From IMG/VR virus record IMGVR_UViG_2700989535_000002: DNA of 24,361 nt, one strand, 5' to 3'. This document shows, in pieces, positions 4,166-11,362 of the stretch. Both the position numbers and the translations under genes were made by a program. Origin of the DNA: a virus (taxonomy: Duplodnaviria > Heunggongvirae > Uroviricota > Caudoviricetes). The notes under the pieces were generated by a model. The model was not told where the DNA came from. It ran no database searches and saw only the letters and a list, made by a program, of their open reading frames with translations. Each line of letters starts with the position of its first letter. The first letter of the stretch is position 1.

Positions 4166-6443
4166 AGCCTCCGGGCGTTTTGTCCCTCCGTCAGCATTTG
4201 CCGCAGGCACCGGTAAGGCGTTTACCGGTGCTTATGCATGGAACGCGCCACGCGAGGCTGTCGGGCGCGAAAGACCCCTTACACGTGATGAGATGCGTCA
4301 GGTGCAAGGTGTTTTATCCACGATTAACCGCCTGCCTTACTTTTTGCGCTCGCTGTTTACTTCACGCTATGACTACATCCGGCGCAATAAAAGCCCGGTG
4401 CACGGGTTTTATTTTCTCACATCCACTTTTCAGCGTCGTTTATGGCCGCGCATTGAGCGTGTGAATCAGCGCCATGAAATGAACACCGACGCGTCGTTGC
4501 TGTTTCTGGCAGAGCGTGACCATTATGCGCGTCTGCCGGGGATGAATGACAAGGAGCTGAAAAAGTTTGCCGCCCGTATCTCATCGCAGCTTTTCATGAT
4601 GTATGAGGAACTCTGCGATGCCTGGGTGGATGCGCATGGCGAAAAAGAATCGCTGTTTACGGATGAGGCGCAGGCTCACCTCTATGGTCATGTTGCTGGT
4701 GCTGCACGTGCTTTCAATATTTCCCCTCTCTACTGGAAAAAATACCGTAAAGGGCAGATGACCACGAGGCAGGCATATTCTGCCATTGCCCGTCTGTTTA
4801 ACGATGAGTGGTGGACCCATCAGCTTAAAGGCCAGCGTATGCGCTGGCATGAGGCGTTACTGATTGCTGTCGGGGAGGTCAATAAAGACCGTTCTCCTTA
4901 TGCCAGTAAACATGCCATTCGTGATGTGCGTGCACGCCGCCAGGCAAATCTGGAATTTCTTAAATCGTGTGATCTCGAAAACAGGGAAACCGGCGAGCGC
5001 ATCGACCTTATCAGTAAGGTGATGGGCAGTATTTCTAATCCTGAAATTCGCCGGATGGAGCTGATGAACACCATTGCCGGTATTGAGCGTTACGCCGCAG
5101 CAGAGGGTGATGTGGGGATGTTTATCACGCTGACCGCGCCGTCAAAGTATCACCCGACACGTCAGGTCAGAAAAGGCGAAAGTAAAACCGTCCAGCTAAA
5201 TCACGGCTGGAACGATGAGGCATTTAATCCAAAGGATGCGCAGCGTTATCTCTGCCGTATCTGGAGCCTGATGCGCACGGCATTCAAGGATAATGATTTA
5301 CAGGTCTACGGTTTGCGTGTCGTCGAGCCACACCACGACGGAACGCCGCACTGGCATATGATGCTTTTTTGTAATCCGCGCCAGCGTAACCAGATTATCG
5401 AAATCATGCGTCGCTATGCGCTCAAAGAGGATGGCGACGAAAGAGGAGCCGCGCGAAACCGTTTTCAGGCAAAACATCTTAACCGGGGCGGTGCTGCGGG
5501 ATATATCGCGAAATACATTTCAAAAAACATCGACGGCTATGCACTGGATGGTCAGCTCGATAACGACACCGGCAGGCCGCTGAAAGACACTGCAGCGGCT
5601 GTTAGCGCATGGGCGTCAACGTGGCGCATCCCGCAATTTAAAACGGTTGGCCTGCCGACAATGGGGGCTTACCGTGAACTACGCAAATTGCCGCGCGGCG
5701 TCAGCATTGCTGATGAGTTTGACGAGCGCGTCGAGGCTGCACGCGCCGCCGCAGACAGTGGTGATTTTGCGTTGTATATCAGCGCGCAGGGTGGGGCAAA
5801 TGTCCCGCGCGATTGTCAGACTGTCAGAGTCGCCCGTAGCCCGTCGGATGACGTTAACGAGTACGAGGAAGAAGTCGAGAGAGTGGTCGGCATTTACGCG
5901 CCGCATCTCGGCGCGCGTCATATTCATATCACCAGAACGACGGACTGGCGCATTGTGCCGAAAGTTCCGGTCGTTGAGCCTTTGACTTTAAAAAGCGGCA
6001 TCGCCGCGCCTCGGAGTCCTGTCAATAACTGTGGAAAGCTCACCGGCGGTAATACTTCGTTACCGGTTCCCACGCCTTCTGAGCACGCCGCAGCAGTGCT
6101 TAATCTGGTTGATGACGGTGTTATCGAATGGAATGACCCGGAGGTCGTGAGGACGCTCAGGGGTGCATTAAAACACGGACTGAGAAGACCAAACCGTCAG
6201 CAAAGAAACGGAAGCCCGTTAAAACCACATGAAATTGCGCCATCGGCCAGACTGACCCGGTCGGAACGAATGCAAATCACCCGTATCCGCGTTGACCTTG
6301 CTCAGAACGGTATCAGGCCGCAGCGATGGGAGCTTGAGGCGCTGGCGCGTGGGGCAACCGTAAATTATGGCGGAAAAAAATTCACGTATCTGGTTGCTAA
6401 TGAGTGGTTCGGGTTTCAAGATGACGTGTCATTTTTCATATAA
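4155..6443 (+). CDS. A: Replication initiation endonuclease A (rolling-circle initiator)
   Basis: 762 aa from ATG at 4155 (track ORF begins at 4113). Large last gene of the early operon, same position and nearly same size as P2 A. Contains HxH-like GTPHWHMM and tyrosine-rich GYIAKYISKN segments typical of rolling-circle initiators. Confidence 0.85.
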   Translation: MAVKASGRFVPPSAFAAGTGKAFTGAYAWNAPREAVGRERPLTRDEMRQVQGVLSTINRLPYFLRSLFTSRYDYIRRNKSPVHGFYFLTSTFQRRLWPRIERVNQRHEMNTDASLLFLAERDHYARLPGMNDKELKKFAARISSQLFMMYEELCDAWVDAHGEKESLFTDEAQAHLYGHVAGAARAFNISPLYWKKYRKGQMTTRQAYSAIARLFNDEWWTHQLKGQRMRWHEALLIAVGEVNKDRSPYASKHAIRDVRARRQANLEFLKSCDLENRETGERIDLISKVMGSISNPEIRRMELMNTIAGIERYAAAEGDVGMFITLTAPSKYHPTRQVRKGESKTVQLNHGWNDEAFNPKDAQRYLCRIWSLMRTAFKDNDLQVYGLRVVEPHHDGTPHWHMMLFCNPRQRNQIIEIMRRYALKEDGDERGAARNRFQAKHLNRGGAAGYIAKYISKNIDGYALDGQLDNDTGRPLKDTAAAVSAWASTWRIPQFKTVGLPTMGAYRELRKLPRGVSIADEFDERVEAARAAADSGDFALYISAQGGANVPRDCQTVRVARSPSDDVNEYEEEVERVVGIYAPHLGARHIHITRTTDWRIVPKVPVVEPLTLKSGIAAPRSPVNNCGKLTGGNTSLPVPTPSEHAAAVLNLVDDGVIEWNDPEVVRTLRGALKHGLRRPNRQQRNGSPLKPHEIAPSARLTRSERMQITRIRVDLAQNGIRPQRWELEALARGATVNYGGKKFTYLVANEWFGFQDDVSFFI

Positions 6444-6619
6444 AACATTTCAAAATTCAATGTAATGAAAGCATATCGTATATCGCTTTAATATGTGTTA
6501 TTCTTCTTGGTTGTTAATGTTTGATTTTATATGAAAAAATATTATATATAGAAAGATCAAATACAACGGTTTACTTGTTATGATGCAATTATTGGTTAGT
6601 TAGTGAGATACATCGCCAT

Positions 6620-6860
6620 CAATTGGGTATTTTTTACCCGTGGAAAGTTAACACTTTCTACCGTTTACCCCGCGCAACGCCCCTGCCAGCGACAAGAGTC
6701 ACAGGACCAGGTGGTATGGCGTATGGGAATTCGAACCCTTTGGGCGACAAAGGGTTCGTGGAGCAGGGAGCTAGTGCTGTTCAATCTCATCCTTATGAGG
6801 GCGAACCATAGTGTTGGAGCAGACATACCGTTTGCACACTATGGGCATAAGGAGCAAATC
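6620..6860 (+). ncRNA. Candidate structured RNA / long 5' leader upstream of the RT operon (possible retron msr-msd)
   Basis: GC-richer than the flanking AT-rich spacer. Perfect hairpins: GAAAGT/ACTTTC (6643-6658), CGAACCCTTTG/CAAAGGGTTCG (6732-6758), and a composite stem CCTTATG..CCATAGTGT / ACACTATGG..CATAAGG (6791-6852) whose 3' arm overlaps the downstream SD. a1/a2 repeats not identified, so retron ncRNA identity is unproven. Confidence 0.3.
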
Positions 6861-7016
6861 ATGAAGAATGATAAATTAACCAACGAACAGCAGGCGCAGA
6901 ACAAGTCAAACCTGAAAAAGAGGGCTGGTTATGCTTGGGAATTATTCAAATGGGGTATTAGACTGTTTGATTTAGTCACTCGAGCACTGGGCTACTTAGA
7001 AGGGGGTGGTGAGTAA
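6861..7016 (+). CDS. Small 51-aa protein of unknown function
   Basis: ATG at 6861 with strong SD AAGGAG 6 nt upstream; polar N-terminus, amphipathic C-terminus (AGYAWELFKWGIRLFDLVTRALGYL). The longer GTG-initiated track ORF (6603) is not supported. Confidence 0.4.
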   Translation: MKNDKLTNEQQAQNKSNLKKRAGYAWELFKWGIRLFDLVTRALGYLEGGGE

Positions 7017-7052
7017 TGCGTCCTCCCTAGTTTCAATAGCATGGAGTTGCCT

Positions 7053-7361
7053 ATGTTACATAAAGCCCTTCGTTTAATAAGGCAATACCATAAAGAATCA
7101 ATAGTTGAGTTATCTTCATCTTTAGGTATTCCAAAAGACAAAATAGTATCGCTTGAAAGCGGAGTTTGGTCACCGTCGATTGAAGTCTTAGAGCGTTACG
7201 CCTCCCATTTCGACATACCAGTATCCTCTTTAGTATTCTTTTCGGAATCATTAGGCACGCAAGGCCGTTTGTCTAAGCGATTGCGTTTAAATTTAGCCGG
7301 TAAAGTTCTGGATGTTCTGGAGTGGGTAAGTAATAAAAATGAAAAAACGGAAAAAGCTTAA
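7053..7361 (+). CDS. XRE-family helix-turn-helix DNA-binding protein
   Basis: 102 aa from ATG at 7053 (GGAG 6 nt upstream). HTH_3-like segment LSSSLGIPKDKIVSLESGVWSPSIEVLERYASHFDIP. Its 3' end overlaps the RT start by 23 nt. Confidence 0.6.
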   Translation: MLHKALRLIRQYHKESIVELSSSLGIPKDKIVSLESGVWSPSIEVLERYASHFDIPVSSLVFFSESLGTQGRLSKRLRLNLAGKVLDVLEWVSNKNEKTEKA

Positions 7362-8289
7362 GGTTAATACTAAAAATAAATCTTATGACATAATGGATTC
7401 GCCATTTTACAAACTCAAAAGTAAAAGAAAACTGGCGAATTTGCTTTGTGTTAGTCTTGAAGAATTATACTCTTTGAGAAAAGATGAAGGAAACTATTCC
7501 GTTTTTGAGCAACTTTCTAAAAAAGGAAAAGCACGAAAAATACAAAAGCCTTTAGAAAAACTAGAACTTGTACATACACGAATTGCAAGTTTGTTATCAC
7601 GGATTGCTTTGCCAGAATATCTGCACTCGGGGAAGAAGAAGTGCTCTAATGTGACGAATGCTAAAGCTCATCTTAATAATGAAAAGATGATGACAACAGA
7701 TATTAAAGCTTTTTTTCCATCAACTACAAGAGGGATGATATTTTCTTTTTTCTTTTCGGTGATGAAAATGTCATCTGATGTTGCTGATGTTTTGTCCCAC
7801 ATATGTACTTGTCATGACCGATTACCAACAGGTAGTCGCATCAGTATGCCGTTGGCATATTTTGCAAATTCAAGAATGTTTGGTGAAATATATCAACTTT
7901 GCCAAAAGTTACGAGTTAACATGACTGTTTATGTTGATGATCTCACTTTTTCAGGTGGTAACGTAAATCGATTGTTTTGCGCTGTAATTCGTAAGATCGT
8001 TAATAAGCATGGACATGTTATACACCCAACGAAAACAAAATTATATGCCAGAGATAAGCCTAAGTTGGTAACTGGAGTTATTGTATTCGGTAATGCTTTA
8101 AAAGTTAGGAATGAGCAGCATTTTTTGATGGCTAGGGAAATAGATTATTGGAAAATAATTAAAGACGCCGAAAATGCGAGAGAAACAATCATTGCCAAAA
8201 AGCTCTTTGGCCGTTTGCATTCAATGGGAGTGATTGAGCAACGTTACAAATCGAAGGTGCTTACTTTAAAGGCTAATACTGCAAATTAA
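7339..8289 (+). CDS. Reverse transcriptase, retron-type
   Basis: 316 aa. NAKAH (NAxxH), TDIKAFFPS, LPTGSRISMPLAYFAN, YVDDLTFS (YxDD catalytic motif) and LVTGVIV (VTG) align motif-by-motif with retron RTs such as Ec86 as recalled. Alternative start at 7393 possible. Confidence 0.8.
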   Translation: MKKRKKLKVNTKNKSYDIMDSPFYKLKSKRKLANLLCVSLEELYSLRKDEGNYSVFEQLSKKGKARKIQKPLEKLELVHTRIASLLSRIALPEYLHSGKKKCSNVTNAKAHLNNEKMMTTDIKAFFPSTTRGMIFSFFFSVMKMSSDVADVLSHICTCHDRLPTGSRISMPLAYFANSRMFGEIYQLCQKLRVNMTVYVDDLTFSGGNVNRLFCAVIRKIVNKHGHVIHPTKTKLYARDKPKLVTGVIVFGNALKVRNEQHFLMAREIDYWKIIKDAENARETIIAKKLFGRLHSMGVIEQRYKSKVLTLKANTAN

Positions 8290-8412
8290 CATATTGAATG
8301 TATTGCATAAAAGCATCAATAATTAAAATGACTTGGCGTTAGTAACGCCGCAAGTGCAGGAATTTACTTTCGATGCAGGCGGTGTTGATTAGAAACCTCA
8401 GAAAGTAGTTAG

Positions 8413-8850
8413 CTATGAAGCTGACGTCACAAAATTAACGCCAAGAGTCAACAGGTTTGTCACTGCTCCAGCAATTACACCTGGAGTTCCGTCTTTTACT
8501 GCACTGATAATTTTATCACCCATCGTTTCATTACCGCCAAGTGCTTCGGGTTTTTTGTTGAGCACCGCGAGTGCTTTCTCGGTCAGGCGCACATCATGAA
8601 AACCGGTCTGATGGTCTGTTCCGTACAGAATATAGCCGTTTTCGCTTAGGAAAGTGAATGTGCCATCAACCACACTACGCAACTGATTCAGTGCTTTCAT
8701 TTCTGGTGAGTTAAGTTGGTCAAAGTAGTCATCAGGTAACGCGGCGTTAAATTTTTTGTAGGTGATGACTTGTGGTACAGGAAAGTTATCCCATAGCACC
8801 GCAAAGATTTCTGCCGTCTGTTGGTTGAATAATTCGAGATTTTTGGACAT
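8413..8850 (-). CDS. Hypothetical tail-anchored membrane protein (145 aa)
   Basis: Minus-strand ORF with SD AGGGA 7 nt upstream of ATG; soluble N-terminal ~115 aa and C-terminal hydrophobic helix (GTPGVIAGAVTNLLTLGVNFV). Convergent with the RT operon. Confidence 0.6.
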   Translation of the reverse strand: MSKNLELFNQQTAEIFAVLWDNFPVPQVITYKKFNAALPDDYFDQLNSPEMKALNQLRSVVDGTFTFLSENGYILYGTDHQTGFHDVRLTEKALAVLNKKPEALGGNETMGDKIISAVKDGTPGVIAGAVTNLLTLGVNFVTSAS

Positions 8851-9181
8851 GCATAGTTCCCTTTCATCAATTAAAGACCCTTATGCCGACTGGGCAAAGA
8901 GGCTAACTGTAATGGCCTCAAATAACGACCTGAGCTCTCGCGAGGTGGACAGTTACACTGAAAAAATGGTTGAACAAGCCAGTAAAGATGAGCTTATGGT
9001 CGTTATAAAATACCTGTTAAATCACATCAGAATGAATAAATAAAATGATCTATATCAAGATGTTATCTCACATTTATGAAAGTCCGTGGACAACGATTTT
9101 TCTGCTAATTGTTGTCAGTACGTGCCTCAACAGTGTGATTGGTGCATTGCGCGGCCAGTGACAACTATAAAAATTGATCAG

Positions 9182-9210
9182 AACCGGCATCATGAATGCC
9201 GGTTTTTTTG
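9182..9210 (+). terminator. Intrinsic terminator-like hairpin
   Basis: AACCGGCAT / ATGCCGGTT 9-bp perfect stem, 5-nt loop, followed by a 7-T run. Confidence 0.5.
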
Positions 9211-9367
9211 TGCTTTTTCTGTGATATCCCCGTTTTTATCTGTGCATGCAATATGTGCATGGTTTTGCATGTGCCGGAGTTACATGTTCTGGCCGTGCGT
9301 CCGCCAAGACTGGCGTGGCTCAAAAGCGGTATTGCAACTGCATTAAAACCGCCCCATGAAGCGGGCG

Positions 9368-9386
9368 GGCGAGGCGGGGAGAGCAT
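9368..9386. other. Candidate cos (cohesive end) site
   Basis: GGCGAGGCGGGGAGAGCAT matches the P2 19-nt cohesive end as recalled (GGCGAGGCGGGGAAAGCAC) at 17 of 19 positions; sits between A and Q as expected. Confidence 0.45.
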
Positions 9387-9461
9387 TGCCCGCATCCGTT
9401 GTTTTATGTTATTACTACATTGTTAAATTGGATGATTCTTATTTCTTGTGAGGAAGCTGTT

Positions 9462-10730
9462 ATGGCATTGATTGAAGGATTTCGAATATCAAATTTCAGG
9501 TCTCTGAAGAACGTTACGTTAGGAAAAACTTGGAACGATAGAACAAAGAAACCATTGACACCACTTACGGTTGTTATTGGGCGTAATGGTTCTGGAAAAA
9601 GTTCGCTTTTTGATGCATTTGGTTTCTTGGCTGATGCCCTTACCTATGGGGTAGAAGAAGCATGTCATAAGAATGGTCGCGGTGGCTTCGAACGCTTACG
9701 GTCTGCAGGGAGTAGTGAGGATATTGAATTCGAGATTTACTATAGAGAATCACCAAAAGACCGTCCAATCACATATGAATTGTCAATTGGCATTGATGCT
9801 ACTGGAAGACCTATAGTTAAGAAAGAAAGGTTGCGTCAGCGCAGGAGAGGTCAAAATAGAGGGTGGCCTTTCTCTTTTCTTGAATTATACAATGGAGTAG
9901 GAAAGGTTTGGTCAGGGGAATCTTTGTCAGAAAAAAATGAAGAGCATGGCAATATTGATGTTTTGTTAAGTGAAGAGTCTAATGGAACTATGCCAATCGA
10001 GCTAAGCAATACTCAAATGCTTGGTATTGCTACTTTAGGCAACTTGAAAGAGCATCCGAGAATAGCCAGATTCAGAAAATTTATTGAAGGCTGGTATCTT
10101 TCTTATTTTACTCCTGATGCTGCAAGAGATTTGCCTCGAGTTGGCCCGCAGAAACATCTAAATAGAATAGGTGATAACTTAGGCAATTTTGTTCAGTATA
10201 TGGAAAGAGAACATCCCAAAAAATTTAGACAGGTTCTTGAGGATATAGCCCTGAAGATTCCAGGAATTATAAAGATAGATACAGAAGCATCACCTGATGG
10301 AAGATTGCTTTTAAGGTTTTTTAACAAGGGTTTTGATAAACCATTTTATGCTCAACAAATATCTGATGGAACATTAAAACTGTTTGCTTACATGCTTCTC
10401 TTGGAAGATCCTGACCCTGCACCGTTTGTATGTATAGAGGAGCCAGAGAACGGCCTGTATCATAAATTATTACAATCTCTTGCAGAGGAATTTAGGAGCC
10501 ACGCTACAGGTAAGAAAGGTGATTCTCAGTTGTTTGTAACTACTCATCAACCATATTTTGTGGATGCACTCAATCCAGAGGAAGTATGGATATTAGAAAA
10601 AGAATCAGATGGCTTTTCCGTGCTGAGTAGAGCATCTGACTATCCTGATGTGATGGCAATGTATGAACAAGGATTGCCGTTAGGAAGTTTATGGTACAGT
10701 GATCACATTGATAGCAAGGAATTTGACTGA
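9462..10730 (+). CDS. ABC-type / AAA_21-like ATPase (OLD/AriA/AbiLi-like)
   Basis: 422 aa from ATG at 9462 (GAGGAAG SD; the track start at 9399 is TTG). N-terminal FRISNFRSL ... VVIGRNGSGKSSLFDAF (Walker A); C-terminal FVCIEEPENGLYH (Walker B/D-loop) and FVTTHQPYF (H-loop). Confidence 0.85.
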   Translation: MALIEGFRISNFRSLKNVTLGKTWNDRTKKPLTPLTVVIGRNGSGKSSLFDAFGFLADALTYGVEEACHKNGRGGFERLRSAGSSEDIEFEIYYRESPKDRPITYELSIGIDATGRPIVKKERLRQRRRGQNRGWPFSFLELYNGVGKVWSGESLSEKNEEHGNIDVLLSEESNGTMPIELSNTQMLGIATLGNLKEHPRIARFRKFIEGWYLSYFTPDAARDLPRVGPQKHLNRIGDNLGNFVQYMEREHPKKFRQVLEDIALKIPGIIKIDTEASPDGRLLLRFFNKGFDKPFYAQQISDGTLKLFAYMLLLEDPDPAPFVCIEEPENGLYHKLLQSLAEEFRSHATGKKGDSQLFVTTHQPYFVDALNPEEVWILEKESDGFSVLSRASDYPDVMAMYEQGLPLGSLWYSDHIDSKEFD

Positions 10731-11362
10731 TGCATTATGAGATCTTAGTCGAGGGACAATGTGAACTAACTGCTCTTTCAATTCTATTACCTAAGATTAT
10801 TGGAGAGTATAATAATCCACATACTTGGAAAATACATAAACATAGAGGTAATGGTTCTATTCCTGATAACCCAGCATTAGCTCCAAAAATTTCAGATACT
10901 TCACTCTTGGGGCAATTGCCTGCAAAATTAAGGGCTTACTCCAATAATCCAGACCCTAATAGAAAAGTGATTGTATTATTAGATCTAGATGATAAAGATC
11001 GAGAATCGTTCCATACGGCTCTAATTGACTTGTTAAAATATTGTTCGAATCCGTTTGATGTGTCATTTCCTTTTGCAGAAGAGGAATTAGAAGCATGGTA
11101 CCTTGGTGATAGACAAGCATTGATAGCTTACAATGCAAAAATCAATATGACAAAACTAAATGGCTATATTCAAGACTCAATATGTGATACATGGCGTTTT
11201 TTATTAGAGGCTGATGAGCCTTCACTGTTAAAACTGAAAAAGAAAGATAAAAGACTGCTTGAAAAGAAAGTTTTCTGGGCTAAAAAAATTACTCCTCATA
11301 TGGATGTTGATAGGAATTTATCGCCTAGTTTTAATAGTTTTAAAGAATGTTTGCATAATTAA
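10730..11362 (+). CDS. TOPRIM-like small protein (DUF4276/DUF4435-style) partnered with the ATPase
   Basis: 210 aa; start overlaps the ATPase stop (TGATG). N-terminal ILVEGQCE and VIVLLDLDD (DxD) resemble TOPRIM/OLD-family nuclease motifs; EEELEAWYLGD downstream. Confidence 0.6.
   Translation: MHYEILVEGQCELTALSILLPKIIGEYNNPHTWKIHKHRGNGSIPDNPALAPKISDTSLLGQLPAKLRAYSNNPDPNRKVIVLLDLDDKDRESFHTALIDLLKYCSNPFDVSFPFAEEELEAWYLGDRQALIAYNAKINMTKLNGYIQDSICDTWRFLLEADEPSLLKLKKKDKRLLEKKVFWAKKITPHMDVDRNLSPSFNSFKECLHN

What the first reader, a model, noticed from the sequence alone, without database searches (positions are those of the whole stretch)
8413..8850. Orphan tail-anchored 145-aa protein convergent with the RT operon
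It has its own SD and sits in the cargo island between the RT and the cos site, but is on the opposite strand and belongs to no recognisable operon. Small prophage-encoded membrane proteins in this location are often superinfection-exclusion or abortive-infection factors.
Basis: inference. Interest (0 to 1): 0.5.

Follow-up and report, generated by a model that had tools for sequence, protein, structure and literature searches.

The report
Head-to-head prophage accessory gene pair
The 145-aa gene is real, but it is neither an orphan nor convincingly membrane-anchored: it encodes a soluble, acidic winged-helix protein that forms a widespread, uncharacterised two-gene cassette with a small gene on the other strand, found in the variable regions of many temperate phages, and its function is still untested.

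Summary
The ORF at 8413-8850 (-) is a real gene under strong purifying selection (dN/dS 0.05-0.1).

1. It is not an orphan. Its ATG overlaps, in the palindrome CATG (8848-8851), the ATG of a conserved 64-aa gene on the + strand (8849-9043). The same head-to-head overlap recurs in 13/13 enterobacterial loci, 46/80 IMG/VR loci of ~30%-identical homologues and an E. coli BcepMu-like phage.

2. "Tail-anchored" is not supported. The C-terminal segment is a poor transmembrane candidate, is charged in most relatives, and folds into a confident globular model (pLDDT 94).

The protein belongs to phrog_2266, a large family of unknown function. It is acidic, winged-helix and has no catalytic motifs or defence-database hits. 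The cassette is AT-rich relative to its phages, patchily present and inserted at many sites. The 145-aa gene usually lies antisense to lytic operons and the partner sense.

Best reading (inferred): a lysogeny-expressed binding protein whose lytic-strand partner silences or neutralises it, like Listeria TERi. Function untested. Interest is moderate.

The parts
8413..8850 (-). 145-aa acidic winged-helix protein (phrog_2266 family), referred to here as the wH gene
8858..8862 (-). Shine-Dalgarno sequence (AGGGA) of the 145-aa gene. It lies inside codons 4-5 of the partner gene on the other strand.
   Evidence: Read directly from the sequence.
8848..8851 (.). CATG palindrome in which the two divergent start codons overlap by 2 nt
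   Evidence: Sequence. The same overlap occurs in 13/13 enterobacterial loci, in 46/80 IMG/VR loci with at least 8 different junction sequences, in L013 and in phage PhiKM.
8849..9043 (+). 64-aa partner gene (phrog_2454), head-to-head with the 145-aa gene
   Evidence: phrog_2454 match at E 2.3e-38. An intact full-length ORF persists in 13 loci at 50-87% aa identity. dN/dS 0.15-0.20. RefSeq annotates it in E. coli. It is positionally equivalent to the 66-89-aa partner family A5 / phrog_25421 of distant cassettes.
8325..8349 (-). Terminator-like hairpin (GGCGTTACTAACGCC) plus T-run downstream of the 145-aa gene. There is no T-run on the + strand side.
   Evidence: sequence.
9180..9216 (+). Strong terminator-like hairpin (11-bp stem plus T-run) downstream of the partner gene, just before cos
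   Evidence: sequence.
9368..9386 (.). cos cohesive-end sequence that bounds the island on the right
   Evidence: The GGCGAGGCGGGG motif, together with alignment of the right ends of the linear 186 and Midge genomes. About 1000 E. coli genomes share this flank.

Best explanation
The 145-aa gene is one half of a mobile two-gene accessory ('moron') cassette of temperate phages.

Shown:
- It encodes a small, acidic, non-enzymatic winged-helix protein whose N- and C-terminal helices belong to the same globular fold.
- Its start codon overlaps that of a small divergent partner gene, so each gene's ribosome-binding site, and necessarily its promoter or 5' leader, lies inside the other gene.
- The cassette is AT-rich relative to its phage, patchily present among related phages, and inserted at many different genomic sites.
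- In most insertions the wH gene points against the neighbouring lytic operon and the partner points with it.

Inferred:
- The wH gene is transcribed from its own promoter when lytic operons are silent, that is, in the lysogen. There the protein acts by binding a protein, or less likely a nucleic acid, of a competing phage or of the host.
- When lytic or SOS-driven transcription reads through, it runs antisense across the wH gene and sense through the partner. This shuts off the wH gene by transcriptional interference or antisense pairing and produces the partner protein.
- The partner neutralises the wH protein so that the prophage's own development is spared. This amounts to a defence-or-modulator-plus-self-immunity logic.

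The molecular target is unknown.
For: Real, conserved gene pair.

CATG start overlap: 13/13 enterobacterial loci, 46/80 IMG/VR loci, L013 and PhiKM. 22 of 43 clusters of the wH protein at 70% identity carry a partner.

Distant partners form one family with the motif MDWVRARxYW..LAEAL (A5, phrog_25421).

Reciprocal Shine-Dalgarno sequences lie inside the other gene's first codons (junction sequences).

Insertion sites differ:
- next to cos in enterics;
- between tube FII and gpE;
- between TerL and gpW, and upstream of TerS;
- between the repressor and gpD;
- in early operons.

The gene 3' of the wH gene is convergent in 34/42 loci, often with the two stop codons 1-4 nt apart. The gene after the partner is co-oriented in 29/42.

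In L014 and L094 the wH gene lies in the same direction as, and downstream of, the HTH repressor gene.

The wH gene is a median 7 GC points below its phage. In the window it is 44% against 53-55% for gpA and Q-P.

Presence is patchy: 78 E. coli genomes carry the pair, against 1077 that share the cos flank.

The protein is non-enzymatic. Conserved positions are almost all hydrophobic, Gly or Pro, and only K92 and K119 are conserved charged residues.

The locus is the described P2 defence hotspot between gpA and gpQ next to cos. This protein is listed there only as 'hypothetical' (PMC9122126 text and Table S5A).

A functional precedent exists for this architecture. In Listeria TERi, TerI is a lysogeny-transcribed small gene antisense in the early lytic module. 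The complementary-strand gene both silences it by antisense RNA and encodes an anti-TerI protein (bioRxiv 10.1101/2025.02.27.640495).
Against: No expression, phenotype or interaction data exist for any family member.

No promoter could be placed consistently.

About half of the wH clusters lack a partner, including close relatives in the same TerL-gpW site. The partner is therefore dispensable.

In Mu-like phages and in one P2-like tail operon (L088) the wH gene is in the sense orientation inside lytic operons. That does not fit lysogen-only expression.

In this window the upstream transcription unit is a retron that is itself expected to be active in lysogens, so read-through would not be lytic-specific here.

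The enterobacterial partner is not demonstrably homologous to the partners elsewhere (hhalign probability 1.3%, P 0.04).

PADLOC finds nothing.
Confidence: 0.4

Rival explanations
1. The wH protein is a conventional winged-helix transcription factor. It binds DNA in the overlapping promoter region and regulates itself, the divergent small gene, or other phage genes. Under this reading the cassette is a small regulatory switch rather than an effector plus antagonist.
Against: The family is acidic (median pI 5.1; query 4.87). No basic residue is conserved in the putative recognition helix or wing apart from K92. No Pfam HTH model reaches threshold in the query, and only 1-2 of 147 members hit any winged-helix-type Pfam model (HTH_45, DUF6293_C). 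The best structural neighbours include many protein-binding winged helices such as kleisin, RPA32, cullin and MukE/ScpB. Many relatives have no divergent partner to regulate. The HHpred link to T7 gp5.5/5.7 cited in the Midge record was not reproduced.
Confidence: 0.2
2. The wH protein is an anti-defence or host-takeover factor that helps the phage's own lytic growth. One possibility is that it acts as a decoy winged helix against an SMC/kleisin-type or ABC-ATPase-type host complex. The partner would be a modulator.
For: The gene lies in the sense orientation in the early operon of Mu-like phages, between B and GemA/Mor, and in tail operons. The protein is acidic and non-enzymatic. There are weak structural resemblances to the KITE/kleisin winged helices MukE, ScpB, JetB, ScpA/Scc1 and to LmuABC.
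Confidence: 0.15
3. One reading: a tail-anchored inner-membrane protein that excludes superinfecting phages or triggers abortive infection at the membrane.
For: The last 22 residues are uncharged and contain a GxxxG-like pattern (G124-G128). The enterobacteria-only AF2 model gave low confidence for residues 101-145. The gene sits in a defence hotspot. In one lineage (L099/L100) a predicted membrane protein follows the wH gene on the same strand.
Against: The Kyte-Doolittle maximum is 1.52, below the usual 1.6. The summed Hessa free energy is +4.3 kcal/mol, with two Asn in the segment, against +0.5 for the holin-position ORF in the same window. The equivalent helix is charged in most of the family (median 6 charges in the last 30 residues; positions 124 and 127 are usually D/E and K/R). 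The deep-alignment AF2 model packs it into the fold (pLDDT 93-97, pTM 0.89).
Confidence: 0.08
4. The gene is an accessory or self-immunity component of the adjacent type VI retron.
For: In E. coli the exact allele WP_000042038 co-occurs with the retron genes in the stored part of Rousset et al. Table S5A (18 occurrences each for it and the HTH gene). The pair is also adjacent to the retron in Klebsiella phage ST147-VIM1phi7.1 and in E. coli QEC11-421.
Against: The same pair occurs without any retron in phages Midge and FSLSP004, in Salmonella prophages and in E. coli O157:H16. It also occurs in unrelated phage types. Published type VI retrons are complete as ncRNA-SP-HTH-RT and defend without a fourth gene (bioRxiv 10.1101/2025.10.22.683967 and 10.64898/2026.04.27.721009). 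The gene is on the opposite strand.
Confidence: 0.03

Closest known systems
Listeria prophage TERi system (TerI + anti-TerI1/anti-TerI2; Azulay et al., bioRxiv 10.1101/2025.02.27.640495)
   Same: Both have a small prophage gene embedded antisense in a lytic module and overlapped by a lytic-strand gene on the complementary strand. In TERi the complementary gene both silences TerI by antisense RNA and encodes a neutralising protein (self-immunity). The genes are small, non-enzymatic and unannotated. The cassette here is also often next to terminase genes or cos.
   Different: No sequence relationship was shown; TerI is 65 aa against 145 aa here, and the sequences were not compared. In TERi the two ORFs overlap along their length, whereas here only the start codons and leaders overlap. 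Terminase targeting, lysogenic transcription and self-immunity are experimentally shown for TERi and are entirely untested here.
Classical prophage morons / lysogenic-conversion exclusion genes in the same P2 hotspot (P2 old and tin, 186 orf97; BstA with its aba self-immunity element)
   Same: All are cos-proximal or otherwise variable positions, patchy in distribution, carry their own translation and termination signals, have atypical GC, and are oriented against lytic transcription. BstA shows that prophage defences need cognate self-immunity (PMC8585504).
   Different: There is no homology to Old, Tin, Orf97, SieB or BstA, and no PADLOC hit. Those are single genes, or a gene plus a DNA element, with enzymatic or HTH domains. 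This is a two-protein head-to-head cassette with no catalytic motif.
Small winged-helix regulators (MarR/PadR/Rrf2-like; B. subtilis YjcQ, PDB 2HGC)
   Same: They share the fold order helix-strand-helix-helix-hairpin, flanked by N- and C-terminal helices as in dimeric MarR/PadR proteins. The motif 'LTxKGL' follows the wing.
phrog_2266 / phrog_2454 / phrog_25421 (PHROGs families of unknown function)
   Same: The 145-aa protein and all 147 diverse relatives tested match phrog_2266. The partner matches phrog_2454. Distant partners match phrog_25421.
   Different: PHROGs records these as three unrelated families of unknown function. I did not find the physical linkage, the start-codon overlap or the orientation rule described anywhere.

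Membership tests
phrog_2266 (phage protein family, unknown function) | Full-length match to the family profile | tested here: met
   E 2.4e-61, residues 1-142 against profile positions 1-143 of 144. All 147 members of alignment A2 match it.
Tail-anchored membrane protein | A single C-terminal segment hydrophobic enough to span the membrane | tested here: not met
   Kyte-Doolittle 19-residue maximum 1.52. Summed Hessa free energy +4.3 kcal/mol against +0.5 for the holin-position ORF of the same window. No dedicated transmembrane predictor was available.
Tail-anchored membrane protein | The hydrophobic tail is conserved as such across homologues and independent of the folded domain | tested here: not met
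   Relatives carry a median of 6 charged residues in the last 30, and only 3 of 143 reach KD 1.6 anywhere. Positions 124 and 127 are usually D/E and K/R. AF2 places the helix in the globular fold at pLDDT 93-97.
Tail-anchored membrane protein | Membrane localisation | not testable with these tools
   Needs fractionation or microscopy.
Winged-helix DNA-binding transcription factors (MarR/PadR-like) | Winged-helix fold | tested here: met
Winged-helix DNA-binding transcription factors (MarR/PadR-like) | Significant match to a curated HTH/wHTH family model | tested here: not met
   No Pfam or NCBIfam hit for the query. Only 1-2 of 147 relatives touch HTH_45, DUF6293_C or DUF4364 weakly. The PDB profile search gives E>=0.07.
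Winged-helix DNA-binding transcription factors (MarR/PadR-like) | Basic recognition helix or wing, and DNA binding | tested here: inconclusive
   The family is acidic (median pI 5.1) and no conserved K/R lies in helix 49-70. This argues against DNA binding, but binding itself cannot be tested here.
Type VI retron (ncRNA-SP-HTH-RT) | Part of the retron operon and co-inherited with it | tested here: not met
   The gene is on the opposite strand. The pair occurs without a retron in Midge, FSLSP004, Salmonella prophages and E. coli O157:H16. Published operons have no such gene.
Known or candidate anti-phage defence systems (PADLOC-DB 2.0) | Match to any defence-protein model | tested here: not met
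   No families at E<=1 for either the 145-aa or the 64-aa protein. The flanking RT_VI/HTH_VI and HEC-01A/B genes match strongly in the same call.
Prophage moron / lysogenic-conversion cassette | Variable presence among related phages, and insertion at different sites | tested here: met
   78 against 1077 E. coli genomes. At least 5 distinct insertion contexts.
Prophage moron / lysogenic-conversion cassette | Own expression signals, atypical composition, and orientation against lytic operons | tested here: met
   SD and terminator-like hairpin. GC 44% against 53-55% for the backbone, with a median deficit of 7 points across loci. Convergent with the upstream gene in 34/42 loci. Exceptions are the Mu-like and L088/L011 sense insertions.
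Prophage moron / lysogenic-conversion cassette | Transcription in the lysogen | not testable with these tools
   No transcriptome of a carrier strain was available. The promoter scan was uninformative.
Defence-plus-self-immunity modules (TERi-like) | A lysogeny-side gene overlapped by, or antisense to, a lytic-side gene | tested here: met
   The start codons and leaders overlap, and the partner is co-oriented with lytic operons.
Defence-plus-self-immunity modules (TERi-like) | The effector blocks phages, and the partner neutralises it by binding and/or antisense RNA | not testable with these tools
   Requires plaque assays, prophage-induction assays and interaction tests.
Type II toxin-antitoxin pair | Co-directional bicistronic operon with a recognisable toxin or antitoxin domain | tested here: not met
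   The genes are divergent. Neither protein has a Pfam or PADLOC TA domain.

The most novel reading that the evidence does not exclude
The phrog_2266 winged-helix protein and its head-to-head partner constitute a previously unrecognised, widespread prophage conflict module. The wH protein, made in lysogens, would inactivate an essential late function of invading relatives or satellites. DNA packaging is an obvious candidate, given the repeated placement beside cos, TerS and TerL. The partner, made only when lytic transcription runs antisense through the wH gene, would provide self-immunity. The overlapping start codons would act as a hard-wired either/or expression switch.
Probability: 0.2. 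Interest if true: 0.75.

Novelty: new variant of a known kind. Interest (0 to 1): 0.55.

Why it matters
If the model holds, hundreds of temperate phages would share a compact effector/anti-effector module. These include P2-like, lambda-like-head and Mu-like phages across Enterobacteriaceae and GC-rich Proteobacteria. The module is invisible to current defence finders and is catalogued only as three unrelated 'unknown' PHROGs.

It would add a Gram-negative counterpart to the recently described prophage defences with self-immunity (BstA/aba, TERi). It would also offer a clean natural example of mutually exclusive gene expression enforced by overlapping divergent start codons.

Even if the function proves regulatory, the cassette is a useful marker of moron insertion sites. 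It also explains part of the 'hypothetical' content of the P2 cos-proximal hotspot.

Tried and rejected
1. Retron accessory gene. Rejected, because the pair occurs in retron-free contexts and published type VI operons have no such gene.

3. The weak Pfam RecJ_C hit (E 0.013, 16 bits against a cut-off of 30). Treated as noise.

4. Transmembrane tail.

5. Homology between the enterobacterial 64-aa partner (A6) and the widespread partner family (A5). The register looks plausible by eye, but hhalign gives probability 1.3% and P 0.04. I treat the two as positional analogues only.

6. Sigma-70 promoter placement. Counts in the window are no higher than in shuffles, and no position was conserved across 30 loci. 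An apparent '-10' element 10 nt before the partner ATG is simply the complement of the conserved Asn-Ile codons.

8. Sequence-based function. Pfam, NCBIfam, PADLOC and PDB-sequence searches on the query, the family and the partner found nothing.

9. Literature. No paper mentions WP_000042038, WP_000042039, CPTMidge_045 or phrog_2266. The protein appears only as 'hypothetical' in Table S5A of Rousset et al. 2022.

10. The search for related loci with the broad alignments A2 and A3 failed for lack of a conserved stretch. A narrower alignment, A4, worked.

11. Plasmids. The family is essentially absent, with 3 records per query.
Full report
**What is in the window**

The window is a P2-like prophage. 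It carries int, C, cox, B and gpA on the left and Q, P, O, N and the remaining late genes on the right.

Between gpA (ends 6443) and the portal gene Q lie four units:
1. A complete type VI retron: the SP ORF at 6861-7016, HTH at 7041-7361 and RT at 7339-8289 (PADLOC RT_VI 2.8e-105, HTH_VI 7.7e-31).
2. The finding itself, a 145-aa ORF at 8413-8850 on the - strand.
3. A 64-aa ORF at 8849-9043 on the + strand.
4. The cos sequence GGCGAGGCGGGGAGAGCAT at 9368-9386. The right ends of the linear 186 and Midge genomes align to ~9366/9376.

Beyond cos sits a HEC-01/AbiL-/PARIS-like pair, an AAA_21 ATPase plus a DUF4276 protein. This is the cos-proximal gpA-gpQ hotspot described by Rousset et al. 2022 (PMC9122126).

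**Checking the observation**

The coordinates, strand and length are correct. So are the Shine-Dalgarno sequence (AGGGA, 7 nt upstream of the ATG), the convergence with the RT gene and the position between RT and cos. A - strand terminator-like hairpin follows the gene at 8349-8335.

The ORF is a real gene. It matches phrog_2266 end to end at E 2.4e-61. It has 70 close homologues in Enterobacteriaceae. An exhaustive HMMER search found 332 clusters at 50% identity, nearly all 125-170 aa and aligned over the full length. Against orthologues from Salmonella, Klebsiella, Entomohabitans, Scandinavium and Rosenbergiella, dN/dS is 0.05-0.10.

**It is not an orphan**

The ATG of the 145-aa gene (complement of 8848-8850) and the ATG of the 64-aa + strand ORF (8849-8851) share the palindrome CATG.

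The 64-aa ORF is itself a gene:
- It matches phrog_2454.
- It is kept intact and full-length in 13 loci at 50-87% amino-acid identity.
- Its dN/dS is 0.15-0.20.
- RefSeq annotates it.

Of the 13 phage records that hold it, 10 also hold the 145-aa gene. Phages SW9 and SI22 (3 records) retain the small gene plus only the first 19 codons of the large one.

**The pairing is ancient and widespread**

I fetched 80 IMG/VR loci that encode ~30%-identical relatives.

- In 46 of them a divergent 58-89-aa ORF starts in exactly the same CATG overlap, and the junction sequences fall into at least eight different types. Three further loci have the same partner a few bases away.
- Counting clusters of the large protein at 70% identity, 22 of 43 carry a partner.
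- These partners form one family with the motif MDWVRARxYW...P.E.LAEAL, and some end in a Cys cluster (alignment A5; phrog_25421).
- The same arrangement is present in a metagenomic P2-like element (L013).
- It is also present in the E. coli BcepMu-like phage PhiKM, where the large gene is not annotated.
- The enterobacterial 64-aa partner cannot be shown to be homologous to this family (hhalign probability 1.3%, P 0.04). I call it a positional analogue.
- In the non-enteric cassettes, each gene's GGAG-type Shine-Dalgarno sequence lies within codons 2-5 of the other gene (junctions). Each promoter or leader must therefore lie inside the other gene.

**The protein**

With a 147-sequence alignment, AlphaFold2 gives a single confident domain (pLDDT 94.3, pTM 0.89). 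Its elements are:
- a long N-terminal helix;
- a winged-helix core (strand 27-30, short helices, helix 49-70, hairpin 78-89);
- helix 91-97;
- two C-terminal helices (110-120 and 123-144).

Sequence searches also return nothing usable. Profile and single-sequence searches of Pfam, NCBIfam, PADLOC and PDB sequences gave only sub-threshold winged-helix matches such as YjcQ, MarR, eS10 and AspA.

The family is acidic (query pI 4.87; median 5.1). The conserved columns are hydrophobic, Gly or Pro, and only K92 and K119 are conserved charged residues. There is no catalytic signature and no conserved basic recognition helix. An HHpred link to T7 gp5.5/5.7, quoted in the Midge GenBank record, was not reproduced.

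**'Tail-anchored' is not supported**

The last 22 residues are uncharged, but several lines argue against a membrane anchor.

- The Kyte-Doolittle maximum is 1.52.
- The summed Hessa free energy of the best 19-mer is +4.3 kcal/mol, and the segment contains two Asn. The holin-position ORF in the same window scores +0.5.
- In the family at large the equivalent helix is amphipathic and charged, with a median of 6 charges in the last 30 residues. Positions 124 and 127 are usually D/E and K/R.
- The deep-alignment model packs this helix into the fold at pLDDT 93-97.

One caveat remains. With enterobacterial sequences only, the C-terminus was modelled at low confidence. A clade-specific membrane affinity therefore cannot be excluded without an experiment.

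**Genomic logic**

The cassette behaves like a moron.

It is patchy. 1077 of 5426 complete E. coli genomes share the cos flank, but only 78 carry the pair.

In enterics it always sits next to cos, while different cargo lies between it and gpA:
- the retron;
- a GNAT gene;
- DinI/Tum plus unknown genes;
- nothing at all.

It is therefore independent of the retron. Published work also defines the retron as a self-sufficient ncRNA-SP-HTH-RT operon.

Elsewhere the cassette is inserted at other sites:
- between tube FII and the chaperone gpE of P2-like tails;
- between TerL and gpW, or upstream of TerS, in phages with lambda-like head genes;
- between the repressor operon and gpD;
- within early operons.

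The large gene is a median 7 GC points below its phage. In the window it is 44% against 53-55% for gpA and Q-P. The family is essentially absent from plasmids.

An orientation rule emerges. The large gene is convergent with the gene on its 3' side in 34 of 42 loci, often with the two stop codons only 1-4 nt apart. The partner is followed by a co-oriented gene in 29 of 42. These counts are crude, because shadow ORFs in GC-rich DNA inflate the exceptions. In L014 and L094 the large gene runs in the same direction as the HTH repressor gene.

The typical layout is therefore [lytic operon ->][<- wH gene][partner ->][rest of operon ->]. Lytic transcription must cross the wH gene in antisense before it reaches the partner in sense.

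In this window the layout is the same. The early operon and retron run rightward. The hairpin after the retron has a T-run only on the - strand side. The partner points rightward and is followed by a strong terminator at 9180-9206, just before cos.

**Counter-examples**

- About half of the clusters have no partner, including close relatives at the same TerL-gpW site.
- In Mu-like phages the gene is in the sense orientation in the early region, between B and GemA/Mor.
- In two tail clusters it is in the sense orientation and, in L011, translationally coupled between gpD-like and V-like genes.
- In the two Mu-like loci examined (L015, L011) it shows no GC deficit.

**Most likely mechanism (inferred; confidence about 0.4)**

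The wH protein is a non-enzymatic binding protein expressed from its own promoter when lytic operons are off, that is, in the lysogen. On induction, read-through transcription silences the wH gene by transcriptional interference or antisense pairing across the overlapping leaders. The same transcription expresses the partner, which antagonises the wH protein so that the prophage's own cycle is spared.

This is the logic experimentally shown for the Listeria TERi system. There the small lysogeny-transcribed gene terI lies antisense in the early lytic module. The complementary-strand gene both reduces terI RNA and encodes an anti-TerI protein (bioRxiv 10.1101/2025.02.27.640495). More loosely, it is also the logic of BstA with its aba element (PMC8585504).

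The shown steps are the gene pair, the start-codon overlap, the orientation rule, the moron-like composition and distribution, and the fold. The timing of expression, the wH-partner antagonism and the target are all inferred.

**Rivals**

- A conventional winged-helix autoregulator or switch (0.2). The fold and the divergent layout favour it. The acidity and the lack of conserved basic contacts count against it.
- An anti-defence or host-takeover factor, possibly a decoy of KITE/kleisin-type winged helices (0.15). Only the sense-oriented Mu-like contexts and non-significant structural hits support it.
- A retron accessory gene (0.03).

**What is known, and novelty**

The protein is listed only as 'hypothetical' within P2-hotspot arrangements in Table S5A of Rousset et al. 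2022. No paper in the library mentions its accessions or PHROG. PHROGs files the two genes, and the distant partner family, as three unrelated families of unknown function.

I found no description of the linkage, the CATG start overlap or the orientation rule. That is an absence in the searched library, not proof of novelty.

I rate the finding a new variant of a known kind, namely a prophage moron or conflict cassette with an antisense-coupled partner. Interest is moderate (0.55). The architecture is striking and widespread, and it makes a clear, cheap experimental prediction. No function is established.

Noticed in passing
window 6444-8289: A complete type VI retron: the small-protein (SP) toxin ORF at 6861-7016, HTH at 7041-7361 and RT at 7339-8289. 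A ~420-nt non-coding stretch (6444-6860) presumably holds the ncRNA/hyRNA. Rfam has no model that hits it.
   Followed up: partly
window 9399-11362: A HEC-01 / AbiL-/PARIS-like pair (AAA_21 ATPase plus DUF4276 protein). It lies on the far side of cos, between cos and portal gene Q, so the prophage carries cargo on both sides of cos. E. coli EF7-18-58 has two different unknown genes at the same place.
   Followed up: partly
window 9368-9386: The cos cohesive-end sequence GGCGAGGCGGGGAGAGCAT. About 1000 of 5426 complete E. coli genomes share the 60-nt flank around it.
   Followed up: yes
L003 (Salmonella phage SW9) 5003-5252: SW9 and SI22 keep the 64-aa partner gene together with only the first 19 codons of the 145-aa gene. 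This suggests that the retained stub carries the partner's RBS or promoter.
   Followed up: partly
L005 (Escherichia phage PhiKM, PQ738613) ~4965-5342: An unannotated homologue of the 145-aa protein (34% identity). It lies head-to-head (CATGATG) with the annotated 71-aa CDS at 30863-31078, which carries the widespread partner motif. The pair is embedded antisense in the leftward early operon of a BcepMu-like phage.
   Followed up: yes
L028 5772-6444; L059 5751-6441: In GC-rich prophages the cassette is wedged into essential late operons, either tube FII | cassette | gpE or TerL | cassette | gpW. The stop codon of the large gene lies 1-4 nt from the stop of the convergent essential gene, which leaves no room for a terminator.
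   Followed up: partly
IMG/VR loci L028-L048, L092, L014 (partner ORFs): Many partner proteins end in a Cys cluster (CQCCRHF, CRCCRCC, CPVCGRK). This may be a metal-binding tail. It is absent from the enterobacterial and TerL-gpW-type partners.
   Followed up: no
L011 6001-6393; L088 6001-6447: In a Thermodesulfovibrio Mu-like prophage and in one P2-like phage, the homologue sits in the sense orientation inside the tail/baseplate operon just before the V spike gene. In L011 both its start and its stop overlap the neighbouring genes by 4 nt. This is unlike a moron and is unexplained by the main model.
   Followed up: no
L099 6458-6961: In one lineage the large gene is followed on the same strand by a 167-aa protein with an N-terminal hydrophobic segment. 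The pair sits at the lambda 'bor' position, between the lysis genes and TerS.
   Followed up: no
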